Source: a virus
Lineage: Duplodnaviria; Caudoviricetes
IMG/VR virus record: IMGVR_UViG_3300017754_002176
Span: 1-46,536 of that record
Length of the DNA stretch: 46,536 bases
Direction: 5' to 3' (one strand)
Shown piece after piece: positions 34,833 through 45,215 of this stretch (position 1 is its first letter; the number at the start of each line of letters is the position of its first letter). The notes under the pieces are model-generated. The model was not told the origin of the DNA, searched no databases, and was given only the letters and a program-made list of their open reading frames with translations. The position numbers and the translations under genes were made by a program.

Positions 34833-34905
34833 CCATCGGGGCAGGATTCGAACCTGCATCTCTATGCAATACTGCACCGCTTTTACCAATTATAGCCACC
34901 CGATT
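34833..34905 (-). ncRNA. tRNA-like RNA 2 with non-canonical anticodon arm
   Basis: Acceptor AUCGGG/CCCGAU, D arm GCU...GG...AGC, T arm GCAGG-UUCGAAU-CCUGC; anticodon arm GUGCA-GUAU-UGCAU has a 4-nt loop; no CCA encoded. Confidence 0.75.
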
Positions 34906-34971
34906 GTGTGCCCGTCTTTCCGAGCTGTCAGCATTCTATTGAAATAGGAAGTTAGTGTGCTTATACCTCTG

Positions 34972-35042
34972 TCATCGGGGCAGGATTCGAACCTGCATTA
35001 TAGAGAGAAATCTCCCTTGCATTACCAAGTTGCCACCCGATG
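34972..35042 (-). ncRNA. tRNA-like RNA 1 with non-canonical anticodon arm
   Basis: Acceptor CAUCGGG/CCCGAUG, D arm GCA-ACUUGGUAA-UGC, identical T arm; anticodon arm AGGGAG-AUUU-CUCUCU has a 4-nt loop; no CCA encoded. Confidence 0.75.
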
Positions 35043-35070
35043 AAAAAACCCCAATGTAGAAACATCGGGG
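35043..35070 (-). terminator. Terminator-like hairpin abutting the 5' end of tRNA-like RNA 1
   Basis: CCCCGATGT-TTCT-ACATTGGGG-TTTTTT on the minus strand. Confidence 0.6.
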
Positions 35071-35093: not shown

Positions 35094-36200
35094 CTATGCG
35101 TTGTAAGTTATTACTTCATTCTCAGAAAACCAACCACCACATGCACCACAATAATAATTACTGAACCCGTCATGCTCAAGGTCATTGAAGCAACTGATAC
35201 ATATTGGCGTTTCATTCTTGACATCGAACTCGTCATCAATATCCGTGAACTCGTCAATGTACAACTGCCTACCTAACTTCCTTTCCGCCTCAATCACCTC
35301 CTCCTCGTCTTCCTCCCACCACTTCTTAGTCTCGCTCTGCTTGATGAATGAGAAGGTCTGAGTGTATGTCTCATGTACCTCCTGCCCTCTGTACTTCTCA
35401 GCTATGTTGAAGTATATCCAACAAGTCAATGTCCTGCCGTCCTTCATCTTGATTGGTATCTGCTTACGCCTATACCAATTGGGATGCCCCTCCAACGCAT
35501 CTAAACTCTTCAATACCGAATCACTCACCTTGAACACATCAACCTCAACATTGTAGCCTATGCCCTTCATCTCAATGAGGTAAGGCAAACCCGATATAAT
35601 CATTGGGTATTTGTTCTCGGTGTTACCCCCACCCAAATGCTTTGAGAATGTCAAGAACCTATTGTAGTTGCTGTACCCCTTCTTGAGCGTACCATATACC
35701 GCAACCAAGTTATCCTCAAGCACATTGCCCTTGCTGTACCAAACCCCGTCACGCTGAACCCATAGGTGCTTGTTGTACATCTGAAACGTGCGATTGCGTG
35801 TGTTGATGGTCACGAACCTGCTGTCATGCTTCTCCAATACCTTCTTCCATGTGTGCCTTGGAACTTCACCAAGGGACTCAGCGAGTACCCTTGAGTCACT
35901 CCTATTGGTATCACCCAAGCCTCTGATTGTGCCGTTCATCATCAACCACTCATGCTTGTTTGTACCGCACCTGAATGGGTGAGTGTTCTCTCTGTTGACC
36001 GCACCAATGGTGGCGAACCTAAAGTGACAGATGAATGGTCTGTCGGTGTCAAGTACCTTGTACTGATTGGACTGATGGTAAGTAACCTCGAAGGTATCCA
36101 ACCAAATAACTCCCAACCCATGCGGATTGATTCTGCTTGAGGTCTTCGCAACCTCCTTCGGAAGGGTCATGCCCTTCTGCTTGATGATGATAATACACAT
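35094..36200 (-). CDS. Class II glutamine amidotransferase fused to gamma-glutamylcyclotransferase (AIG2-like), with C-terminal Zn ribbon
   Basis: N-terminal M-C nucleophile, NPHG, HFRFAT, NTHPF, NG, SDS motifs; VAVYGTLKKG...LDALEG motif; CxxC...CxxC. Confidence 0.85.
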   Translation of the reverse strand: MCIIIIKQKGMTLPKEVAKTSSRINPHGLGVIWLDTFEVTYHQSNQYKVLDTDRPFICHFRFATIGAVNRENTHPFRCGTNKHEWLMMNGTIRGLGDTNRSDSRVLAESLGEVPRHTWKKVLEKHDSRFVTINTRNRTFQMYNKHLWVQRDGVWYSKGNVLEDNLVAVYGTLKKGYSNYNRFLTFSKHLGGGNTENKYPMIISGLPYLIEMKGIGYNVEVDVFKVSDSVLKSLDALEGHPNWYRRKQIPIKMKDGRTLTCWIYFNIAEKYRGQEVHETYTQTFSFIKQSETKKWWEEDEEEVIEAERKLGRQLYIDEFTDIDDEFDVKNETPICISCFNDLEHDGFSNYYCGACGGWFSENEVITYNA

Positions 36201-36326
36201 TTGCGTTTGATTTGTGGGCAGTGTCTAAGGGCATTCGTGTCTTCGAAGACACTCATACCCGACTCAGAACCAGATTAATGAACTAAAGATGAACGAAGAT
36301 AAGACAATAATTGAACACTACCAAAT

Positions 36327-36488
36327 TTACTTTTTTAACCTTGCCTTGAACTTCTCCCTTACAAGTAGTGGACGGGTCGGTGAGAACTTTGTCCAAGCCT
36401 TCTCAACCGCCTCCCACTTGCTGTGGGCAATGATGTCTATAACGAAGACACCACCATAGTAGACCTTGAATAGCATTTCTGATTCCAT
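36327..36488 (-). CDS. Small hypothetical protein, 53 aa
   Basis: MESEMLFKVYYGGVFVIDIIAHSKWEAVEKAW...; fills the intergenic gap. Confidence 0.55.
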   Translation of the reverse strand: MESEMLFKVYYGGVFVIDIIAHSKWEAVEKAWTKFSPTRPLLVREKFKARLKK

Positions 36489-36495
36489 TTGCGTA

Positions 36496-36693
36496 TTATT
36501 TTGTTAAAAATACAATAGATGTTAGCCTACTATTTGTCTCTTGGTCAAAAAGGTCTTCTTCCAATTTTACACACACCTCCACATCTGAGTCTTCATCGTG
36601 TCGGTAGTTAATTGTAATAGAGGATAGGTCTTCGCCTTCATTTTGAAGGTCAGTGAGAAAGTCCATTACTTGTTGTGCCGTAATTGATTCCAT
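36496..36693 (-). CDS. Hypothetical acidic protein
   Basis: Start moved to MESIT, after the A-rich leader. Confidence 0.6.
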   Translation of the reverse strand: MESITAQQVMDFLTDLQNEGEDLSSITINYRHDEDSDVEVCVKLEEDLFDQETNSRLTSIVFLTK

Positions 36694-36712
36694 TGTATTT
36701 GGTTTTGATGAG

Positions 36713-36758
36713 TGGCTGAGGGCAGTATTGCTCTGCCTTCGCTCATTGCTCTCAGCCA
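36713..36758 (-). ncRNA. Unrecognised structured RNA motif, copy B
   Basis: UGGCUGAG-AGCAAUGAGCGAA-GGCAG(AGCAAUA)CUGCC-CUCAGCCA; paralog at 37221-37266 with compensatory changes. Confidence 0.65.
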
Positions 36759-36764
36759 TGGGGG

Positions 36765-36965
36765 TTACCCATTGTATTGGTCATAAATCTCTTTAACTGA
36801 TTCCAATACCCAATTTGTAGTGACCATTGCACCAACGCTTCTGATTTCTGTTACCTCCATTTTAAGACCATGGTGGTACATTTTCTTTGCCTCAATGATG
36901 TTCTCAGCACCGATTAGAATAGTTGAATTGTCTTTTGGTGATGTCAGCCTTAATAGTCCTTTCAT
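36765..36965 (-). CDS. Hypothetical protein
   Basis: 66-aa ORF with A-rich start. Confidence 0.6.
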   Translation of the reverse strand: MKGLLRLTSPKDNSTILIGAENIIEAKKMYHHGLKMEVTEIRSVGAMVTTNWVLESVKEIYDQYNG

Positions 36966-36976
36966 GTGTGTTTGGT

Positions 36977-37201
36977 TTAAAAAGTTAGTGTTTCAAATTG
37001 ATAGTAAAAATTTACCTGCTCGTTGGGAAACCTCTTCTGAAGTTCATTCACGTAATCCTCATTGTCATAAAGGAAGTCATTCACCCTCTCTGAGTGAACC
37101 ATTGGGGCAATAACGCTCTTCACTTGCTCCTCTGTTAGTGTGGTCAAGAGATGGAAGTCTTCTTCATCCCATCCCGATGTGCTGATTCTGTAAACTTGCA
37201 T
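36977..37201 (-). CDS. Hypothetical protein
   Basis: Start moved to MQVYR. Confidence 0.6.
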   Translation of the reverse strand: MQVYRISTSGWDEEDFHLLTTLTEEQVKSVIAPMVHSERVNDFLYDNEDYVNELQKRFPNEQVNFYYQFETLTF

Positions 37202-37220
37202 TGTGTTTGGTTTTGATGAG

Positions 37221-37266
37221 GGTCTGAGGGTGGTAACGAACCACCTACGCACATTGCTCTCAGTCC
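37221..37266 (-). ncRNA. Unrecognised structured RNA motif, copy A
   Basis: GGACUGAG-AGCAAUGUGCGUA-GGUGG(UUCGUUA)CCACC-CUCAGACC. Confidence 0.65.
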
Positions 37267-37274
37267 TTAGGGCG

Positions 37275-37502
37275 TTAGTTTGTCGGAACCCAACCGACCT
37301 CAATGCCAATGTCATTCCCGTTGGCAATGGCATCCTTGATTTGCTGAAGGTTTATCAGCAACCTCTCTGACCCGTCATCGAATAACTCATAATATTCGAA
37401 GATAATGGGAGCGTTCATGAATAATATCTCTGCAAATGGCGTTACAATATGCCACACAAAGACTGAATCCACCATCTTGTCTGTTACTTTAAAATTTTTC
37501 AT
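37275..37502 (-). CDS. Hypothetical protein
   Basis: Start moved to MKNFK. Confidence 0.6.
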   Translation of the reverse strand: MKNFKVTDKMVDSVFVWHIVTPFAEILFMNAPIIFEYYELFDDGSERLLINLQQIKDAIANGNDIGIEVGWVPTN

Positions 37503-37512
37503 GCTGTTTGGT

Positions 37513-37719
37513 TTAATAGTCATCTTCTAAATACTCACCTGCATCCATGTAGTCATGGTATCTGTCACGCCTATACGGGTACTTGTCCCCCTCGTAACAC
37601 TCGTCACACCACCACCCCGTACTATATCCATACGCATCTGACCTCTCGTCCACCCACTTGTCGGGGTTTGTCTCATGGGATTGGTCGCAACCCCTACAAA
37701 GAATCTTCTCTTTTCTCAT
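37513..37719 (-). CDS. Small Zn-binding protein
   Basis: Start MRKEK; CRGC...CDEC. Confidence 0.6.
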   Translation of the reverse strand: MRKEKILCRGCDQSHETNPDKWVDERSDAYGYSTGWWCDECYEGDKYPYRRDRYHDYMDAGEYLEDDY

Positions 37720-37894
37720 CGTCTTGGTTTTGATTGGTGAATACTTCGACACCCCACTTGGTATGTCTGTCATGCTTGTACATTGAAAACAAAGCGTCAA
37801 CGTACTTGAGGAACTCTTGTCTGTCTGAATCATTGAGGTAAAGCAGTCGGTCAATGACCCCCTGCACAACTTTGAGGCGCTCTTCTTCTGTCAT
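37694..37894 (-). CDS. Hypothetical protein
   Basis: Start MTEEE. Confidence 0.55.
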   Translation of the reverse strand: MTEEERLKVVQGVIDRLLYLNDSDRQEFLKYVDALFSMYKHDRHTKWGVEVFTNQNQDDEKREDSL

Positions 37895-37948
37895 GTGATA
37901 AAGTTTATCGGTTAAAAAATTGAGGGTCACGTACACTTGTGTACGTGA

Positions 37949-37999
37949 TTCTGTTTCGTCCTATAGGACTCATCAGCATGGGCACACCCATGGACAGAA
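37949..37999 (-). ncRNA. Hammerhead ribozyme, type III
   Basis: UUCUG-UC^CAUGGG(UGUG)CCCAUG-CUGAUGA-GUCC(UAUA)GGAC-GAAA-CAGAA; complete core and three stems; predicted cut between 37993 and 37992. Confidence 0.95.
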
Positions 38000-38030
38000 G
38001 GGAGTGTCTTCGAAGACACCCCCTTTATGG

Positions 38031-38591
38031 CTATGCTAGGCAATAAATCTCAGACAAAACCCTTACCGCCCTCTCAACGTCACTCGGCTTTACAATGATA
38101 AAGTAATGAGGCTTGTACTCGCCTGCTGTGTCTGACTCCATCCTTCTTGAAGGAATAATGGCATCATCAAACAACTCCTCAACCGCATCCAAATTATGCT
38201 TGTTTAAGGTATGGAATACTGAATACAATGGTCGGCTGTAACGCTCCTTCGCCAACCACTCACTCGTCACATCAAACTCAATCTCCTCAACCACCTCATC
38301 AACAGAACCATTGAACCCGTACACGCTAACCCACTCCCCGTCCCAAGCAATGTCATTGAGATACCACTGCCCCCTGCGTTGATAGATTGATACCCCACTC
38401 AACCCATTTAACCTTTCCTTGGTGGTATTACTTTGCCAACCTGCATTAGTAATCCATAGCTGACCTCTTCTGAACTCAGCAATTTTGTTGTCATGCAGAA
38501 ACAACGCATTGCCATCCGTCCTGCTGTTTCCGATTTTTTTTGGCTCCCGATTGTGGAACGCCCTTGTGATTTCTCTCGTAACTTTTCGCAT
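38031..38591 (-). CDS. Hypothetical phage early protein
   Basis: 186 aa with LFLHDNKIA...AGWQSNTTKERLNGL motif. Confidence 0.7.
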   Translation of the reverse strand: MRKVTREITRAFHNREPKKIGNSRTDGNALFLHDNKIAEFRRGQLWITNAGWQSNTTKERLNGLSGVSIYQRRGQWYLNDIAWDGEWVSVYGFNGSVDEVVEEIEFDVTSEWLAKERYSRPLYSVFHTLNKHNLDAVEELFDDAIIPSRRMESDTAGEYKPHYFIIVKPSDVERAVRVLSEIYCLA

Positions 38592-38611
38592 AGTTTAAAA
38601 TTTTAATGGTT

Positions 38612-38664
38612 TGCCGTTTCATCCTATTGGAATCATCAGTCAAGGCAACTACCTTGATACAGCA
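38612..38664 (-). ncRNA. Hammerhead ribozyme, type III, variant
   Basis: UGCUG-UA^UCAAGG(UAGUUG)CCUUGA-CUGAUGA-UUCC(AAUA)GGAU-GAAA-CGGCA; GUA triplet, U.U at positions 10.1/11.1; predicted cut 38658/38657. Confidence 0.85.
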
Positions 38665-38701
38665 GGGAGGTGGGGAAACCCCACCATCCCTAAATTAACG
38701 A

Positions 38702-38935
38702 TTATTGGATTACGTTCTTCACGAACACCACCACCATGATGCCAATGATGTGAATGAGCCATACCAACTTCACCCTCTCCAATGGTATCTCACTTTCATC
38801 AGCAACCCCCGACACTATCATGCCAAGAATAGTACCAATACATAGAACAATTGTCGCACCCGTATTCTCAAGGAAGAGGGCAAAATAAGAAGGCAAAGCG
38901 GATAAAATGCAAAGCAAAGCGAGTGATTTTGTCAT
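38702..38935 (-). CDS. Small membrane protein with 2-3 TM segments
   Basis: Hydrophobic stretches; start MTKSL, downstream of a TAACTTTG box. Confidence 0.6.
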   Translation of the reverse strand: MTKSLALLCILSALPSYFALFLENTGATIVLCIGTILGMIVSGVADESEIPLERVKLVWLIHIIGIMVVVFVKNVIQ

Positions 38936-38984
38936 GTTGTTCAATTTTAGTTCAAAGTTAGTATAATAGTATGATATATCCAAA

Positions 38985-39428
38985 TTAAATTAATCCACCC
39001 TCATTAAATGAGAAATAGCTTTCATCTGTGATGATAAGGTGGTCAAGCAACTTCATGTCGAAGAATGCACACGCATTCTTAATCTTCTCAGTGATTGCCT
39101 TGTCACCCTCAGAAGGTTTGAGGTTGCCACTTGGATGGTTGTGGGCAAGGATGATTGAAGAAGAGGCGTTGTTCAATGCTATGGTCATTACAACCCTTGG
39201 GTCTAAAACTGTACCGCTGAACCCACCCGAACTGACTTTGTAGTAACCTACCACGTCATTGGCTCTGTTGAGGCATACCATGATGACCTCCTCAGTCCAC
39301 AAAATGGTGTCAGCATCGAAGATTGAACGCATAACTTCAACCATCTTTTCGGGGCTTGTAATGGTCACCTTGTCACCCTTGGTAACGCTGACCTTGACCT
39401 TAATTTTCGGAAACTTGTACTTTTTCAT
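38985..39428 (-). CDS. radC: RadC-like JAB/MPN domain protein
   Basis: E...IILAHNHPSGNLKPSEGD...LLDHLII. Confidence 0.9.
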   Translation of the reverse strand: MKKYKFPKIKVKVSVTKGDKVTITSPEKMVEVMRSIFDADTILWTEEVIMVCLNRANDVVGYYKVSSGGFSGTVLDPRVVMTIALNNASSSIILAHNHPSGNLKPSEGDKAITEKIKNACAFFDMKLLDHLIITDESYFSFNEGGLI

Positions 39429-39444
39429 GTGTGAAATTTTAATT

Positions 39445-39498
39445 GGTTAAGAGCCCCCAAGGGGGGCTTTCGAGTATTCAACCCATCGTCAGTTAACC
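39445..39498 (-). ncRNA. Hammerhead ribozyme, type I
   Basis: GGUUAA-CUGACGA-U-GGGU(UGAAU)ACUC-GAAA-GCCCCC(CUU)GGGGGC-UC^UUAACC; predicted cut 39451/39450. Confidence 0.85.
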
Positions 39499-39759
39499 TA
39501 AGATAACTTTGAACCCCTTGTATACGCCCTTCTTGTAGGCTTCTGAGGTGAACCCCAATTGACTGCTCATGAGGTTTGAGGTGATTGATACGTACCTAAT
39601 TTCAATCTGCCTGAGCACCTCCGCAAAGGTCTTGCCATCCCTAAGAAGGCTTAGAACCTCCCCTTTGGTATTGGCGTTAGGGTTGTCCCACTTGCCCGTT
39701 ATTTTGGCTTGGATGTGAGCGTCTGCAATGGCTTTGATTTGTGGCGTGATTCGTTTCAT
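39493..39759 (-). CDS. Hypothetical protein
   Basis: Start moved to MKRIT; stop codon lies within stem I of the type I hammerhead. Confidence 0.6.
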   Translation of the reverse strand: MKRITPQIKAIADAHIQAKITGKWDNPNANTKGEVLSLLRDGKTFAEVLRQIEIRYVSITSNLMSSQLGFTSEAYKKGVYKGFKVILG

Positions 39760-39760
39760 G

Positions 39761-39847
39761 TTAAAACAATTTTGATTTGTTTGAGAGAATTGAATTGGTA
39801 AGAAAGGCTGAGGCAATGGCTGAGGCAAGGAAAATGAATAAGAGCAT
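39761..39847 (-). CDS. 28-aa hydrophobic peptide
   Basis: MLLFIFLASAIASAFLTNSILSNKSKLF*, with A-rich leader; stop is adjacent to the next start. Confidence 0.5.
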   Translation of the reverse strand: MLLFIFLASAIASAFLTNSILSNKSKLF

Positions 39848-39901
39848 GACGTTTGGTTTTAATGGTTTCTGAGGGGGCAGTCACGCAGAGCGTGGCTGTT
39901 T

Positions 39902-39950
39902 CCGTTTCGTCCTTTGGGACTCATCAGTCAGCGTACACACGCTGAGACGG
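39902..39950 (-). ncRNA. Hammerhead ribozyme, type III
   Basis: CCG-UC^UCAGCGU(GUGU)ACGCUGA-CUGAUGA-GUCC(CAAA)GGAC-GAAA-CGG; predicted cut 39946/39945. Confidence 0.93.
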
Positions 39951-40005
39951 GGGGGGTGGGGAACTCGTGTCTTTAAGGACACTCGTACCCGACCCCCTTC
40001 GCACT

Positions 40006-40896
40006 CTAAAGGTATTGGCGAATCTCAACGTCAGCAGTTCCATCAATGATGAACTTGCGGAACTTTCGAGCCAATTCGAGAATCTCATCCGTCTTGGTTT
40101 CGTCACCATTGTACATGGATTTGATGATGGGGCGAATGGTTTTGAGGAAAGCCTCATGTGACCCGTTCGGCTTGTTCACGCTGAAATCAACCAACTCATG
40201 GAACAATTCGTACCTGCGAATCATTTGCTTAACGCTCTCGAATTTTGAAGGTAAGCGGAACTCTAAGCAGTTACCTTTGACAAGGGCAACTTGATATTTA
40301 TGATGCCAATTGTTGCACTCGCCATAAGATTGCAACCTCTTGTTGTAACCACAAAAATCATTTTTCAAACGATTGCGAAACAAGGCAAGAACAATGCCCG
40401 AATTGATGCGGACAAGTTTTCTGAGGTCATCGCCATCCAATCCATCAACAGCAAGGGTGATATGCCCACCACATTTGTAGTGACTCCCTCTCTTCTCATT
40501 CGAAGGGCTGAATCTGTCATCAATGATGCGCTCCGCTTTATGCATCATGTCGAATACCTTTGTCCTCCATGTTGATGCAGGGACAAGGGGCAGGATATGG
40601 GTCACCGCTTCGTAACCGCATGAGCCATCCGTTTCGAATCCGCAAAACAATTCATACTCCTTCACCGCACCCCTATGAAGGGAATTTTTTTCGACCTCGA
40701 AGCCAATTGTGAACTTTGAGCGAAAATCCCCCAAAGATTCAATGAAATTGCCCCTTTGAGCCTTTTTTAACCCTGCAATATCGCAGTTTTTCGCTCCCCT
40801 GCTAAGGTTAATGGGGTCGGGCTTACCATGGTAACGGGTCACTGACCCCCTTGCTGAATTTCCCGTTAACGTGTACTGAATTCCTTGAACTTGCAT
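40006..40896 (-). CDS. Putative amidoligase (COOH-NH2 ligase, glutamine synthetase-like fold)
   Basis: IGFEVE, DGSCGYEAVT, CGGHIT and LEFR motifs. Confidence 0.75.
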   Translation of the reverse strand: MQVQGIQYTLTGNSARGSVTRYHGKPDPINLSRGAKNCDIAGLKKAQRGNFIESLGDFRSKFTIGFEVEKNSLHRGAVKEYELFCGFETDGSCGYEAVTHILPLVPASTWRTKVFDMMHKAERIIDDRFSPSNEKRGSHYKCGGHITLAVDGLDGDDLRKLVRINSGIVLALFRNRLKNDFCGYNKRLQSYGECNNWHHKYQVALVKGNCLEFRLPSKFESVKQMIRRYELFHELVDFSVNKPNGSHEAFLKTIRPIIKSMYNGDETKTDEILELARKFRKFIIDGTADVEIRQYL

Positions 40897-40919
40897 AAAA
40901 AAAATGGTTTAATGGTTTT

Positions 40920-40968
40920 CCGTTTCGCCCTTTTGGGCTCATCAGCATGAGCGAACACTCATGGACGG
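40920..40968 (-). ncRNA. Hammerhead ribozyme, type III
   Basis: CCG-UC^CAUGAGU(GUUC)GCUCAUG-CUGAUGA-GCCC(AAAA)GGGC-GAAA-CGG; predicted cut 40964/40963. Confidence 0.93.
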
Positions 40969-40998
40969 GAGCGTGTCCTTGAAGACACGCCCTTTGCC

Positions 40999-41619
40999 CT
41001 ATTGGGGCAATGCATCAATCAAAAATGCAATTGCACTCATAATCTCATCCCTTGAATTGGTGGTCTTCACCTCACCCGCCTCATTAATGCGGACAGAAAT
41101 ATTTTTGTCGGGATGCTTGAAAGCAAGGGTGAAAATGGTTTGAGCCCTTGTTTCCACCTCAGCACCTTCGCCTTCGCCCTCTTCTTGTCCACCTTCATTG
41201 CCTTGTTCCACCTGCTTTGCAAATTTCAATAAGTTCTCAATCGACCTCACAGCCTCTTCGCCCCTTGCCTCTACCTCAATGCACTTTTGATTGAAATTTT
41301 CAACAATGGCGTCATCCAATTTGCCGACCTTTAACAATTTGTAGCTAAATGACTTTTGCCACCCAAAAACCTTCTGAAAAAATTCCTCATTGCTCCATGA
41401 AATGCCTTCCTCATTGAATTTCGCCTTGCCCTCCTCAGATGAAAACCAATTGAAAGACTCCTTTACTGCCTTCGCCAATTGGAGGCTATTCTCGAATTTT
41501 TTCTTCTGTGCATTGCTGTCCGCCCTTCTCAAGGTGTTGATGGCTTGCAAGTTCAAAGCCTGCTTAACTTCGGCAAGGGCTAGGAAACTTCTCTCGATTG
41601 AAAGTAATTGTGTGCTCAT
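40999..41619 (-). CDS. First gene of the leftward early unit; hypothetical, possibly DNA-binding
   Basis: 206 aa, helical, with HTH-like EEFFQKVFGWQKSFSYKLLK segment. Confidence 0.65.
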   Translation of the reverse strand: MSTQLLSIERSFLALAEVKQALNLQAINTLRRADSNAQKKKFENSLQLAKAVKESFNWFSSEEGKAKFNEEGISWSNEEFFQKVFGWQKSFSYKLLKVGKLDDAIVENFNQKCIEVEARGEEAVRSIENLLKFAKQVEQGNEGGQEEGEGEGAEVETRAQTIFTLAFKHPDKNISVRINEAGEVKTTNSRDEIMSAIAFLIDALPQ

Positions 41620-41823
41620 TTGTTCAAATTTTGTTTAGTGAGTGATTAATTATTTCACAAATCACGTTCAATTATTTCACATAAACAAATTTTCCACCAA
41701 CTTTTTTTTATTTCCGGTTCAATTGTGGCTGAAATGGTTGATTAATGGGGGCGTTGAATATTGGAATTGATGGATATGTTTAAACATTGAATTAGGGGGG
41801 CGGACATTACCCCCCTCTTCTTT

Positions 41824-43148: not shown

Positions 43149-44759
43149 ATGGACGCAGGATATTCACCAAAGGATTTAAAGTTTGGGGAGGATGGTCGTA
43201 AACGGCTGATTAGTGGTATAGAGAAGATTGCTTCGGCAGTTAAGAGCACGTTAGGTCCAAGTGGGAATACGGTGCTTATAGAGTCTCCCAATCATACTCA
43301 TGGTATAACGGTTACGAAGGATGGTGTCACGGTTGCTAGGTCGGTTGATTTGCTTGACCCGATTGAGAACTTGGCGGTGAAGATGATGAAGGAGGCTGCT
43401 GACCGCACGTCAACAAGTGCCGGTGATGGTACTACTACGGCAATTGTGTTGACGGAGGCTTTGGTTCTTGAGGGTGTTAAGTTGATGCATGATGGTTTGA
43501 ACCGGACGGAGGTGTTGAGGCACATGGTGGACATTAGTGGAAAGGTGGTGGACAAGTTAAGGAGGAGGGCAAAGAAGGTTTCGGAGGGAATGTTATTTGA
43601 TGTGGCTACGATTAGTGCGAATAATGACCGGGAGACCGGGAGGATTATAGCTGAGGTTTATAAAAGCGTTGGCAGAAGCGGTATAGTGACCGTAGAACGC
43701 TCTCAAACTGCTGAGACATACGCAGAGACCACTTTAGGATTAAAGGTCGACAGAGGGTATCTAAGCCCCTTATTCATCAATGACCAAAAAAAGGACGAGT
43801 GTGTCTTTGAGGACACCATGGTCTTGGTAGCTGACATTGAGATAGGGAACATCCTGAGCATCGAGGGGATACTAAAGCCAATCATACAGGAGGGGAAGAA
43901 ACTGCTCATCATTGCACCATGTCACAATAACGTGGTGAACACGTTGGCTGCTAACGTGATGAAGGGCAATTTGAAGATATGTGCGATACAGCCTCCCAAT
44001 TTCGGGTACAAGCAGCATGAGCTGATGCAGGACATAGCGGTTAGCTTGGGTGCTACGTACTTTAGCGAGAAGACCGGTGATGACTTGAGCCATATCACGT
44101 ACGCTGACTTGGATCATGCTGCCAAGGTTATCGTTGGCAAGGATAAAACTATCATCCTTAAGTCTGACCTAAAGGTTGACCAAGCTAAGGTTGACGAGAG
44201 GGTTCAGCAGTTGTGGGATGCACATGCGGTTGCGGTTAGGAAGAATGACAAGGACTTTTTGTTGGAGCGGATAGCTTCCCTTACGGGTGGTATTGGTGTC
44301 ATCTTTGTTGGTGGGAACACTGACCTAGAGCAGAAGGAGTTGTATGACAGGGTTGATGATGCGGTGTGTGCGGTTAAGTCAGCTCTTGACGAGGGCATAT
44401 TGCCGGGTGGTGGCAAGGCGTTGTATGAGACTGAGGTGTTTGACATAATCAGCAATTACGCTGAGGTAACTCGTGAGTTGCATGTCGCTGCCTCAATTTT
44501 GGATAGTGCTTTGAAGGCTCCGTTGGAGCAGATACTGACCAATGCCGGGTTGAAGGTTGAGGACTACTACACAATTGACGTGGAGGATGGTCATGGATTG
44601 AACTTGAAGACGGGTAAGATGGGTGCGCTCATCAAGATGGGGGTTATCGACCCGTTAAAAGTCACCCGTTCTGCTTTGCAGAATGCAGTCAGTGTTGCAA
44701 CAACAATTCTTAGCACCAATGCTATCATTACCATGGCAAGGAGCTATGAGTCAAAGTAG
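43149..44759 (+). CDS. groEL: Phage-encoded chaperonin GroEL
   Basis: TLGPSG, TKDGVTVA, AGDGTTTA, ERIASLTGG, GILPGGG and GVIDPLKV motifs. Confidence 0.95.
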   Translation: MDAGYSPKDLKFGEDGRKRLISGIEKIASAVKSTLGPSGNTVLIESPNHTHGITVTKDGVTVARSVDLLDPIENLAVKMMKEAADRTSTSAGDGTTTAIVLTEALVLEGVKLMHDGLNRTEVLRHMVDISGKVVDKLRRRAKKVSEGMLFDVATISANNDRETGRIIAEVYKSVGRSGIVTVERSQTAETYAETTLGLKVDRGYLSPLFINDQKKDECVFEDTMVLVADIEIGNILSIEGILKPIIQEGKKLLIIAPCHNNVVNTLAANVMKGNLKICAIQPPNFGYKQHELMQDIAVSLGATYFSEKTGDDLSHITYADLDHAAKVIVGKDKTIILKSDLKVDQAKVDERVQQLWDAHAVAVRKNDKDFLLERIASLTGGIGVIFVGGNTDLEQKELYDRVDDAVCAVKSALDEGILPGGGKALYETEVFDIISNYAEVTRELHVAASILDSALKAPLEQILTNAGLKVEDYYTIDVEDGHGLNLKTGKMGALIKMGVIDPLKVTRSALQNAVSVATTILSTNAIITMARSYESK

Positions 44760-44761
44760 TT

Positions 44762-44947
44762 ATGGAGGTCGGTGTAAGATATGAGGCTGACCTGATAGAG
44801 TGCAAGTGGTGTGAGCATAAGTGGTTGGGACACATACACATAGACGTGATTATATGGAGTAATGGTGTAATTGAGGAGAGTCGAGCTGAGGTGTTTGAGT
44901 GTCCTAAATGTGGGATGTTTGAGGGATATATTCAAGGAACCGTTTAA
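44762..44947 (+). CDS. Small Zn-ribbon protein
   Basis: CKWC...CPKC; fills the gap between groEL and groES. Confidence 0.6.
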   Translation: MEVGVRYEADLIECKWCEHKWLGHIHIDVIIWSNGVIEESRAEVFECPKCGMFEGYIQGTV

Positions 44948-44957
44948 AAGAAAAGAG

Positions 44958-45215
44958 ATGAAAGCGATTGGCAAAAATATAGTAATTGAGATAGTTGACG
45001 AAGAGGTTAAGACTGATTCGGGACTTATATTGTCGGGTGATGACACCAATAAGTTTAGGTATAAGCGTGGCAAGGTGGTCACTCCGGGCACTGAGGTGCA
45101 CTCAATTGCTGAAGGTGATGAGATATACTACGACAAGTCCAATGGGTATACCATGATTATCCACAATAAGCAGTATACCATCATCAATGAGCGTGATGTT
45201 GTTATTGTTCTCTAG
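44958..45215 (+). CDS. groES: Co-chaperonin GroES
   Basis: MKAIGKNIVI...KTDSGLIL...GKVVTPG...GDEI...IINERDV; start moved to 44958. Confidence 0.9.
   Translation: MKAIGKNIVIEIVDEEVKTDSGLILSGDDTNKFRYKRGKVVTPGTEVHSIAEGDEIYYDKSNGYTMIIHNKQYTIINERDVVIVL

What the first reader, a model, noticed from the sequence alone, without database searches (positions are those of the whole stretch)
37949..40968. Five hammerhead ribozymes cut the early polycistronic transcript into gene-sized RNAs
Seen in sequence: five complete hammerhead folds on the coding (-) strand within 3 kb, each in an intergenic gap (40920-40968, 39902-39950, 39445-39498, 38612-38664, 37949-37999). Stems differ in sequence but keep their pairing. 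In the four type III copies loop I can start with U and loop II ends in A, which fits the known loop I/II tertiary contact. Established: hammerheads leave 5'-OH and 2',3'-cyclic phosphate ends and are known from phage and environmental DNA. Inference: this is a protein-independent mRNA-processing system, analogous to RNase III cutting of T7 early mRNA. It would release units of 1018 nt (amidoligase), 495 nt, 793 nt (RadC plus membrane protein) and 665 nt. The density and the mix of types look unusual to me.
Basis: partly seen in the sequence, partly recalled or inferred. Interest (0 to 1): 0.92.

Follow-up and report, generated by a model that had tools for sequence, protein, structure and literature searches.

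The report
Swappable RNA cut signals between genes
Five well-formed self-cutting RNA motifs (hammerhead ribozymes) sit between small genes of an uncultured aquatic phage and likely cut its early transcripts into gene-block messages, an idea published in 2011; the addition here is that related phages put tRNA-like motifs or another ribozyme at the same gene junctions, which suggests the cut itself is what matters.

Summary
All five hammerheads are real, at the stated coordinates, on the coding strand. The window is an uncultured, probably Bacteroidota, phage. In 65 related loci 124 hammerhead hits all lie on the coding strand; five copies is the top of the family range, not unique. Clustered phage hammerheads cutting transcripts to gene length was proposed and tested in vitro by Perreault 2011, and this scan noted the same family on other DNA. 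Corrections: a Bacteroidota-type promoter lies inside the 793-nt unit, the type I copy is a doubtful folder, and the series continues with four tRNA-shaped elements (37265-34833). Orthologous junctions hold hammerhead III, hammerhead I, twister or tRNA-like elements, typically just behind a hairpin that often carries a 16-bp dyad. Best reading: hairpin-plus-cut cassettes give each swappable early gene block its own ends. Whether this stabilises or destabilises the RNA is untested; no RNA data. Some junctions and relatives carry no cutting element. New variant of a known kind; interest 0.48.

The parts
40920..40968 (-). Hammerhead 1, type III, predicted cut 40964/40963, after the first early gene
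   Evidence: (E 1.6e-6)
39902..39950 (-). Hammerhead 2, type III, predicted cut 39946/39945, after the 296-aa gene
   Evidence: (E 2.8e-7)
39445..39498 (-). Hammerhead 3, type I with an extra U after the core; stem I holds the stop codon of the upstream ORF; predicted cut 39451/39450; weakest candidate
   Evidence: no Rfam hit
38612..38664 (-). Hammerhead 4, type III with U-U first pair in stem II, predicted cut 38658/38657
   Evidence: (E 3.4e-3)
37949..37999 (-). Hammerhead 5, type III, predicted cut 37993/37992
   Evidence: (over gathering score)
40973..40988 (.). 16-bp dyad (GTGTC-N6-GACAC) inside the hairpin just 5' of hammerhead 1
39967..39982 (.). 16-bp dyad inside the hairpin just 5' of hammerhead 2
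38004..38019 (.). 16-bp dyad inside the hairpin just 5' of hammerhead 5
38665..38690 (-). GC-rich hairpin without the dyad, just 5' of hammerhead 4
37222..37265 (-). tRNA-top-half-shaped element (7-bp stem, 13-nt linker, 5-bp stem with 7-nt loop), derived variant, no Rfam match
   Evidence: not found by the mini-tRNA model
36714..36757 (-). Second copy of the same element with a changed inner hairpin
34972..35042 (-). tRNA-like element with 6-nt anticodon loop, behind a terminator-like hairpin (35049-35070), at a junction that holds a hammerhead in 22 of 38 relatives
   Evidence: tRNA E 4e-6; ARAGORN finds none
34833..34905 (-). Second tRNA-like element with 4-nt anticodon loop
38953..38984 (-). 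Bacteroidota-type promoter-like site (TTTG, 20 nt, TAnnTTTG) inside the 793-nt unit, before the membrane gene
   Evidence: -7 box consensus in PMC7641319
36294..36325 (-). Bacteroidota-type promoter-like site before the GATase/GGCT gene, conserved in relatives, followed by a dyad hairpin (36237-36252)
41658..41689 (-). Probable first early promoter; -7 box degenerate here, consensus at the same place in 13 of 26 relatives printed
40999..41619 (-). First early gene, 206 aa, DUF3102-like lead; candidate reader of the dyad (inferred)
40006..40896 (-). 296-aa protein with predicted glutamine-synthetase/YbdK-like fold (amidoligase-like)
39493..39759 (-). 88-aa ORF of unknown function
38985..39428 (-). 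RadC-like JAB domain gene
   Evidence: E 2e-37
38702..38935 (-). 77-aa hydrophobic ORF, likely membrane protein
   Evidence: sequence; no family hit
38031..38591 (-). 186-aa ORF, Kyano_Gp96 / phrog_554
35094..36200 (-). GATase-II-like plus gamma-glutamyl cyclotransferase gene, right anchor of the variable region

Best explanation
The five motifs are hammerhead-fold RNAs that likely self-cleave during transcription, each a few bases behind a hairpin, so that the phage's presumed early transcripts would fall into gene-block mRNAs with a hairpin-protected 3' end and a fresh 5' end close to the next start codon. The working unit is a junction cassette: stop codon, hairpin (often carrying the 16-bp dyad), cutting element, short A-rich leader. 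The cutting element is exchangeable: hammerhead III, hammerhead I, twister, or a tRNA-like structure that host RNase P or a tRNA 3'-processing enzyme would cut. The likely gain is insulation: every gene of a constantly reshuffled region gets its own ends, stability and translation start whatever its neighbours are, without a terminator that would stop read-through. Shown: folds, strand bias, covariation, junction position, exchange between relatives. From established hammerhead chemistry: cleavage site and end groups. Inferred: activity in vivo, early timing, cutting of the tRNA-like elements, and a stabilising or insulating outcome.
For: Descriptor and Rfam matches. 124 hits in 45 of 65 related loci, all on the coding strand. 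Stem I pairs 5 and 6, which the descriptor did not demand, are paired in 85 of 85 distinct type III copies with three pair types; loop signatures conserved. The 42 nt before the cut fold better than their shuffles in 85 of 85 (mean -16.7 vs -7.0 kcal/mol); the dyad lies within 70 nt in 62 of 85. In type I copies of L003, L043, L048, L049, L053, L056 and in the twister of L036 the dyad hairpin sits inside the ribozyme. Junction after the 296-aa gene (n=49): 37 hammerheads, 7 tRNA-like, 1 DUF805b, 4 none. After the GATase/GGCT gene (n=38): 22 hammerheads, 4 tRNA-like, 12 none. After the first gene (n=47): 7 hammerheads, 1 twister, 3 tRNA-like, 36 none (with five tRNA-like calls added by hand). 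Mini-tRNA-like elements covary at 10 of 12 pairs in 7 sequences; 9 further, non-training matches at E<0.01, all on the coding strand. Their anticodon arm is short, long or absent, so they are not decoding tRNAs. 38 different gene orders in 39 loci. Triples of phage hammerheads cleaved in vitro and one in E. coli (PMC3088659 section 6).
Against: The junction of hammerhead 1 has no cutting element in 36 of 47 relatives, and MW202828.1 has the dyad at 13 places in 15 kb but no hammerhead core or T-arm match, so cutting is dispensable in some lineages. An internal promoter in the 793-nt unit reduces the need for cutting there. Hammerhead 3 misfolds in the energy model. After a type I cut the downstream mRNA has no 5' hairpin, so 5' protection is not general (sequence). 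Hammerheads leave a 5'-OH while RNase P leaves a 5'-phosphate (recalled), so the two element classes would not give identical ends. Ribozyme cleavage speeds decay in the glmS case (PMC11476745 passage). The number of hammerheads and of T-arm matches per locus did not anti-correlate (rho -0.25, p 0.14), on counts that contain false T-arm hits.
Confidence: 0.58

Rival explanations
1. Cutting is a turnover or shut-off device: it opens the early transcripts to host nucleases so that early proteins appear as a brief pulse.
For: glmS self-cleavage leads to RNase J1 decay (PMC11476745 passage); PMC6765202 lists differing stabilities as a possible outcome; type I cuts leave an unstructured 5' end about 20 nt before the start codon.
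Against: A strong hairpin precedes the cut in 85 of 85 type III copies, which fits protection of the upstream RNA; type III cuts leave two hairpins at the new 5' end.
Confidence: 0.15
2. The cassettes are kept mainly as DNA repeats that drive modular shuffling of early genes (PeSL-like), and the dyad is the selected part; ribozyme activity is secondary.
For: 38 gene orders in 39 loci; Sak and exonuclease VIII genes nearby; dyad present without ribozymes; C-A (25) and T-G (16) variants of one dyad pair are about equally tolerated, as expected for a double-stranded DNA site; precedent in the PMC2839356 abstract.
Against: Strict strand bias (124 to 0) and compensatory stem changes at positions the descriptor did not demand need selection on RNA; stems diverge, which lowers recombination homology. 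The two roles are not exclusive.
Confidence: 0.12
3. The compact folds act without needing to cut, as barriers to exonucleases or translation leaders, or the released small RNAs (tRNA-like pieces above all) are the product, for example decoys for host anticodon nucleases.
For: tRNA-like elements keep acceptor and T arms; the window's 37265 and 36757 elements have altered T-loops that RNase P might not read; type I stem I overlaps the upstream stop codon in 19 of 26 hits.
Against: The cleavage triplet and stem III are kept in all 85 distinct type III copies (GUC 50, GUA 32, AUC 2, GUU 1; required by the descriptor, so partly circular); many tRNA-like elements have no anticodon arm at all.
Confidence: 0.1
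4. Pairs of hammerheads excise gene units that are ligated into circular mRNAs.
For: Each unit would carry a 5'-OH and a cyclic phosphate; stem III can re-form across the junction in 41 of 60 adjacent pairs.
Against: Random pairs are as compatible (73%); tRNA-like replacements would not give ligatable ends of that kind; Perreault 2011 could not detect circles.
Confidence: 0.05

Closest known systems
Clustered hammerhead ribozymes in prophages and phages (Perreault et al. 2011, PMC3088659; sections 6, 8 and first part of 11 read)
   Same: Several hammerheads of mixed type flank single genes or short gene blocks; processing to gene-length mRNAs proposed; U10.1-U11.1 variant described; haloviral copy in an early region with a mapped 5' end.
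   Different: Here a whole family of aquatic phages with orthologous junctions, a fixed hairpin-before-cut layout with a 16-bp dyad, and exchange with twister and tRNA-like elements; none of these is in the sections read.
Rfam Hammerhead_3 (RF00008)
   Same: Four copies align over the full model.
   Different: Only one passes the gathering score; short 3-6 bp stem III; the type I copy is not matched by any Rfam model.
RNase III processing of T7 early mRNA (recalled, no call)
   Same: Intergenic cuts turn an early polycistron into hairpin-ended gene-block mRNAs.
   Different: T7 uses a host protein on stem-loops; here ribozymes or tRNA-like elements; several promoters in the region.
tRNA punctuation and t-elements cut by RNase P (PMC4919922 passages)
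   Same: tRNA-like structures as processing signals in long transcripts.
   Different: Known from organelles and lncRNAs; here in a phage, reduced to acceptor plus T arm, untested, and alternating with ribozymes.
PeSL cassettes of T4-like phages (PMC2839356, abstract only)
   Same: Repeated intergenic cassettes in a hyperplastic early region with shuffled genes.
   Different: PeSLs are promoter plus terminator; these cassettes have no conserved promoter beside the dyad and carry cutting elements.
Theta ribozymes of gut phages (PMC10879173 passages)
   Same: Small ribozymes in Bacteroidota phages standing in for host RNases.
   Different: HDV-like fold, at tRNA 3' ends; not gene-junction hammerheads.

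Membership tests
Hammerhead ribozyme | Conserved core CUGANGA ... GAAA with U-H cleavage site | tested here: met
   All five; copy 3 has one extra U after the core
Hammerhead ribozyme | Three stems around the core with compensatory variation | tested here: met
   copy 4 has U-U at the first pair of stem II, a described natural variant
Hammerhead ribozyme | Loop I / loop II tertiary contact | tested here: inconclusive
   Sequence signature conserved; the contact itself cannot be seen
Hammerhead ribozyme | Self-cleavage giving 5'-OH and cyclic phosphate | not testable with these tools
   needs an assay or end-mapped reads
Rfam RF00008 by gathering score | At least 48.5 bits | tested here: inconclusive
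   1 of 5 passes (48.7); three score 30.9-45.3; type I copy unmatched
Clustered phage hammerheads (Perreault 2011) | Several copies flanking single genes or short blocks in phage DNA, gene identity variable | tested here: met
Clustered phage hammerheads (Perreault 2011) | All copies cleave within one long transcript | not testable with these tools
   internal promoter found; no reads
Functional tRNA gene (34833-35042) | 7-nt anticodon loop and canonical cloverleaf | tested here: not met
   loops of 6 and 4 nt; ARAGORN finds none
RNase P substrate / t-element | Stacked acceptor and T stems with T-loop consensus | tested here: met
   35042 and 34905 in the window and mini-elements in relatives
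RNase P substrate / t-element | T-loop consensus in the 37265 and 36757 elements | tested here: not met
   loops deviate; model R1 does not find them, though geometry and flanks match
RNase P substrate / t-element | Cleavage by RNase P or a 3'-processing enzyme | not testable with these tools
   needs an assay
PeSL cassette | Promoter joined to a terminator stem-loop in each repeat | tested here: not met
   no conserved flanking motif around 267 dyad contexts
Retrozyme-like circular RNA | Paired ribozymes selected for a compatible ligation junction | tested here: not met
   41 of 60 adjacent vs 73% random
Amidoligase (GS-like COOH-NH2 ligase), 296-aa gene | Profile match to a Pfam amidoligase family | tested here: not met
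   0 of 49 aligned members
Amidoligase (GS-like COOH-NH2 ligase), 296-aa gene | Glutamine synthetase / YbdK fold with invariant acidic residues | tested here: met
   pLDDT 94.7; all listed Foldseek hits are GS-family or YbdK, E from 1.5e-4, TM only about 0.3-0.39

The most novel reading that the evidence does not exclude
This phage family runs a modular RNA punctuation code in which four unrelated cutting devices (hammerhead III, hammerhead I, twister and a minimal tRNA mimic cut by the host) are plug-compatible behind a dyad-bearing hairpin, showing that the biological job of phage self-cleaving ribozymes is to make terminator-free mRNA ends for shuffled early genes; the unclassified element at 37265 and 36757 would be a further, undescribed cutting signal or self-cleaving RNA derived from the tRNA mimic.
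Probability: 0.3. Interest if true: 0.75.

Novelty: new variant of a known kind. Interest (0 to 1): 0.48.

Why it matters
Why bacteria and phages carry clusters of self-cleaving ribozymes is still open (PMC6765202 passage). A family in which the same gene junction holds a ribozyme, a tRNA mimic or nothing gives natural swap and loss controls, and points to the cut rather than the ribozyme as the selected trait. It also supplies short Bacteroidota-tuned insulator parts and one unclassified structured RNA to assay. The limits: no cultured phage or host is at hand, and the five-hammerhead cluster alone is a known arrangement.

Tried and rejected
No RNA holder was listed for window 36000-41700, so no reads were laid. 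DUF805b, found in the hammerhead junction of L039, was tested as a ribozyme companion: only 1 of 73 distinct viral contexts has a hammerhead within 2.5 kb (80 of 123 loci examined), so it is not counted as a cutting element. The dyad as a hairpin promoter for a virion RNA polymerase: rejected because it lies inside type I and twister ribozymes, has no conserved flanks, and my motif search of the 2639-aa protein gave only two loose matches, neither convincing. Circularisation: no support. A pseudoknot in the 37265/36757 element: pairing not kept across copies. The loosened T-arm scans (87 vs 64 by strand) contain coding false hits and were not used; the statement that no locus lacks both element types is therefore not relied on. 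The tree is the quick search only, 51 rows (loci L059-L065, duplicates and loci without a full-length gene left out); T-arm junctions need 5 changes for 6 rows but strong branches force only 2; its labels missed L029 and mis-tagged L006. Sigma-70 promoter scan: no excess over shuffles. PDB sequence search with the 296-aa profile: nothing. The second fold search (VIA-align) did not run. Genome collection scan gave one partial match in an Erythrobacter MAG contig, which does not fit a Bacteroidota host and may be misbinned. Searches for a paper on this family or on tRNA-like junction elements in phages found none. The supplement of PMC5737381, which describes DUF805b and other phage-associated motifs, could not be read and may cover the tRNA-like elements; the 2014-2015 twister and pistol papers on ribozyme-associated genes are recalled, not seen.
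Full report
Observation. Rfam matches the four type III copies (E 3e-8 to 3e-3), one above the gathering score. The type I copy at 39445-39498 has an extra U after the core and is 5.9 kcal/mol from the best nascent fold, against 0.2-2.6 for the others. Its orthologues argue that it is real: L002 keeps the extra U in two copies with changed stem II pairs, and L001 has a canonical core at the same place. The U-U pair of copy 4 is a described natural variant (PMC3088659 section 8).

Setting. The window is a linear virus record, 77% complete by CheckV, with crAss-like muzzle domains, GroEL/GroES, Sak, exonuclease VIII, primase and helicase. The nearest annotated record is MW202828.1 from a spring; weaker primase hits are mostly Flavobacteriaceae phages. 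Promoter-like sites are of the Bacteroidota type (-7 box in PMC7641319 passages), so a Bacteroidota host is inferred; one partial match in an Erythrobacter MAG is against it. The ribozymes lie in a run of small minus-strand genes between the divergent promoter region and the replication genes; 'early' is inferred from that position. The 296-aa protein has no family hit in 49 aligned members but folds confidently (pLDDT 94.7) and matches glutamine synthetases and YbdK (low TM-scores), so 'amidoligase-like' stands at fold level only.

Family. The 296-aa gene fetched 65 viral loci, some near-duplicates. They hold 124 hammerhead hits in 45 loci, all on the coding strand, and 123 of 124 in loci with the first early gene lie downstream of its start (window included). 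Among 85 distinct type III copies (the window's four included) stem I pairs 5 and 6, not required by the search, are always paired, loop II always ends in A, and 3 lie inside an ORF. Among 38 loci spanning the region the strict count is 0 in 5, 1 in 4, 2 in 5, 3 in 14 and 4 in 10; a looser count reaches 5 in L001 and L049. The window is at the top of a normal range. Gene content between the 296-aa gene and the GATase/GGCT gene differs in 38 of 39 loci.

The cassette. The 42 nt before the cut fold into a hairpin in every type III copy, and in 62 of 85 a 16-bp dyad lies within 70 nt. The dyad occurs nine times without mismatch in the window, also inside groEL, the helicase and the 2639-aa gene (10 with one mismatch allowed, 0.84 expected). 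It has no conserved flanks, tolerates C-A and T-G equally at one pair, and changes sequence in clades where the first early protein diverges. It reads best as a DNA site for a dimeric protein, perhaps the 206-aa DUF3102-like first gene product, built into hairpins that also matter as RNA. An earlier scan note reached the same view.

Exchange of the cutting element. After the 296-aa gene, 37 of 49 distinct loci have a hammerhead, 7 a minimal tRNA-like element, 1 DUF805b and 4 nothing. After the GATase/GGCT gene 22 of 38 have a hammerhead and 4 a tRNA-like element, as does the window itself at 35042. After the first gene 7 of 47 have a hammerhead, 1 a type P3 twister, 3 a tRNA-like element and 36 nothing (with five tRNA-like calls added by hand; twister). 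The minimal elements are a 7-bp acceptor-like stem, a short GG-bearing linker and a T arm; 10 of 12 pairs change on both sides in 7 sequences, and a model built on them finds 9 more at E<0.01, all on the coding strand. Four of the five complete loci without a hammerhead carry such elements (L029, L031, L042, L051). The quick tree places them in several clades, with only two changes forced by strong branches. In the window two more elements of the same 7+5 bp shape, at 37265 and 36757, have altered loops; 12 distinct copies pair at 99% with 4 doubly changed pairs, though the search pattern fixed most positions. Canonical mini-elements nearby share their stem ends and 3' trailer, but the model does not score them.

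Transcription units. Two full promoter matches lie on the minus strand between 34800 and 41800 (0.11 pattern hits expected per shuffle) and none on the plus strand. One is inside the 793-nt unit, so the membrane gene probably also has its own transcript. The first promoter is degenerate here but at consensus in 13 of 26 relatives printed.

Mechanism. Most likely each ribozyme cuts as it is made, leaving the upstream block ending in a hairpin plus cyclic phosphate and the downstream block starting with a 5'-OH some tens of bases before the start codon; tRNA-like elements would give the same break through host enzymes. I infer insulation of shuffled genes as the gain (0.58). Faster turnover (0.15), DNA-level shuffling (0.12), non-cutting or decoy roles (0.10) and circles (0.05) remain. 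Against the best reading: many junctions and MW202828.1 have only the dyad, end chemistry differs between element classes, and nothing here measures RNA.

Prior knowledge. Perreault 2011 already states that clustered hammerheads may process phage transcripts to operon or gene length, shows cleavage of three triples and reports no circles. A 2019 review lists the purpose as undefined. I found no paper on this family or on tRNA-like replacement, but one relevant supplement was unreadable. Four earlier notes of this scan describe hammerhead clusters in look-alike genomes, one of them the tRNA-like swap, and one the dyad; I had seen the swap before reading them. Verdict: real, a known arrangement, with a variant feature that makes the open question of function testable. 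Interest 0.48.

Noticed in passing
window 1568, 15512, 27437, 33455, 36237, 38004, 39967, 40973, 41824, 43801: Genome-wide 16-bp dyad GTGTCTTYRAAGACAC, denser in the early region; other clades use different dyads (L039, L046, L048/L049/L056, L053), alongside divergent versions of the first early protein.
   Followed up: partly
window 37222-37265 and 36714-36757 (-); L066-L089: Unclassified structured RNA with tRNA top-half geometry, 12-25 nt before start codons, in about 12 distinct versions; no Rfam match.
   Followed up: partly
window 36215-36275 (-) and relatives, 5' leader of the GATase/GGCT gene: Conserved leader hairpin whose pairing is kept even where the dyad sequence is lost (L004, L005, L009, L027).
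   Followed up: no
L039 4957-4989 and 8914-8946; L096-L175: Rfam DUF805b motif is common in AT-rich phage leaders just before start codons and looks like a small pseudoknot; not enriched near hammerheads (1 of 73).
   Followed up: yes
L036 7889-7966: Type P3 twister ribozyme that overlaps the stop codon of the first early gene and carries the dyad in its variable hairpin.
   Followed up: partly
window 39493-39498 and type I copies in relatives: Stem I of type I hammerheads often supplies or abuts the upstream stop codon (19 of 26 hits), so a terminating ribosome could gate folding.
   Followed up: partly
window 40006-40896 and 35094-36200: GS-fold ligase plus GATase-II/gamma-glutamyl cyclotransferase genes bracket the variable region in nearly all relatives and are adjacent in distant ones; possibly a peptide- or protein-modification pathway.
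   Followed up: partly
window 43149-45215: Phage-encoded GroEL and GroES right of the divergent promoter region, with a dyad at a conserved place inside groEL.
   Followed up: no
L018 about 12500; L044 9065-9115; L043 10668: Hammerhead core variants (U4C-type core; two-pair stem II; A-A first pair of stem II) at orthologous junctions.
   Followed up: no
L033 7758-7960: Tandem run of dyad plus mini-tRNA-like units with no gene between them.
   Followed up: no
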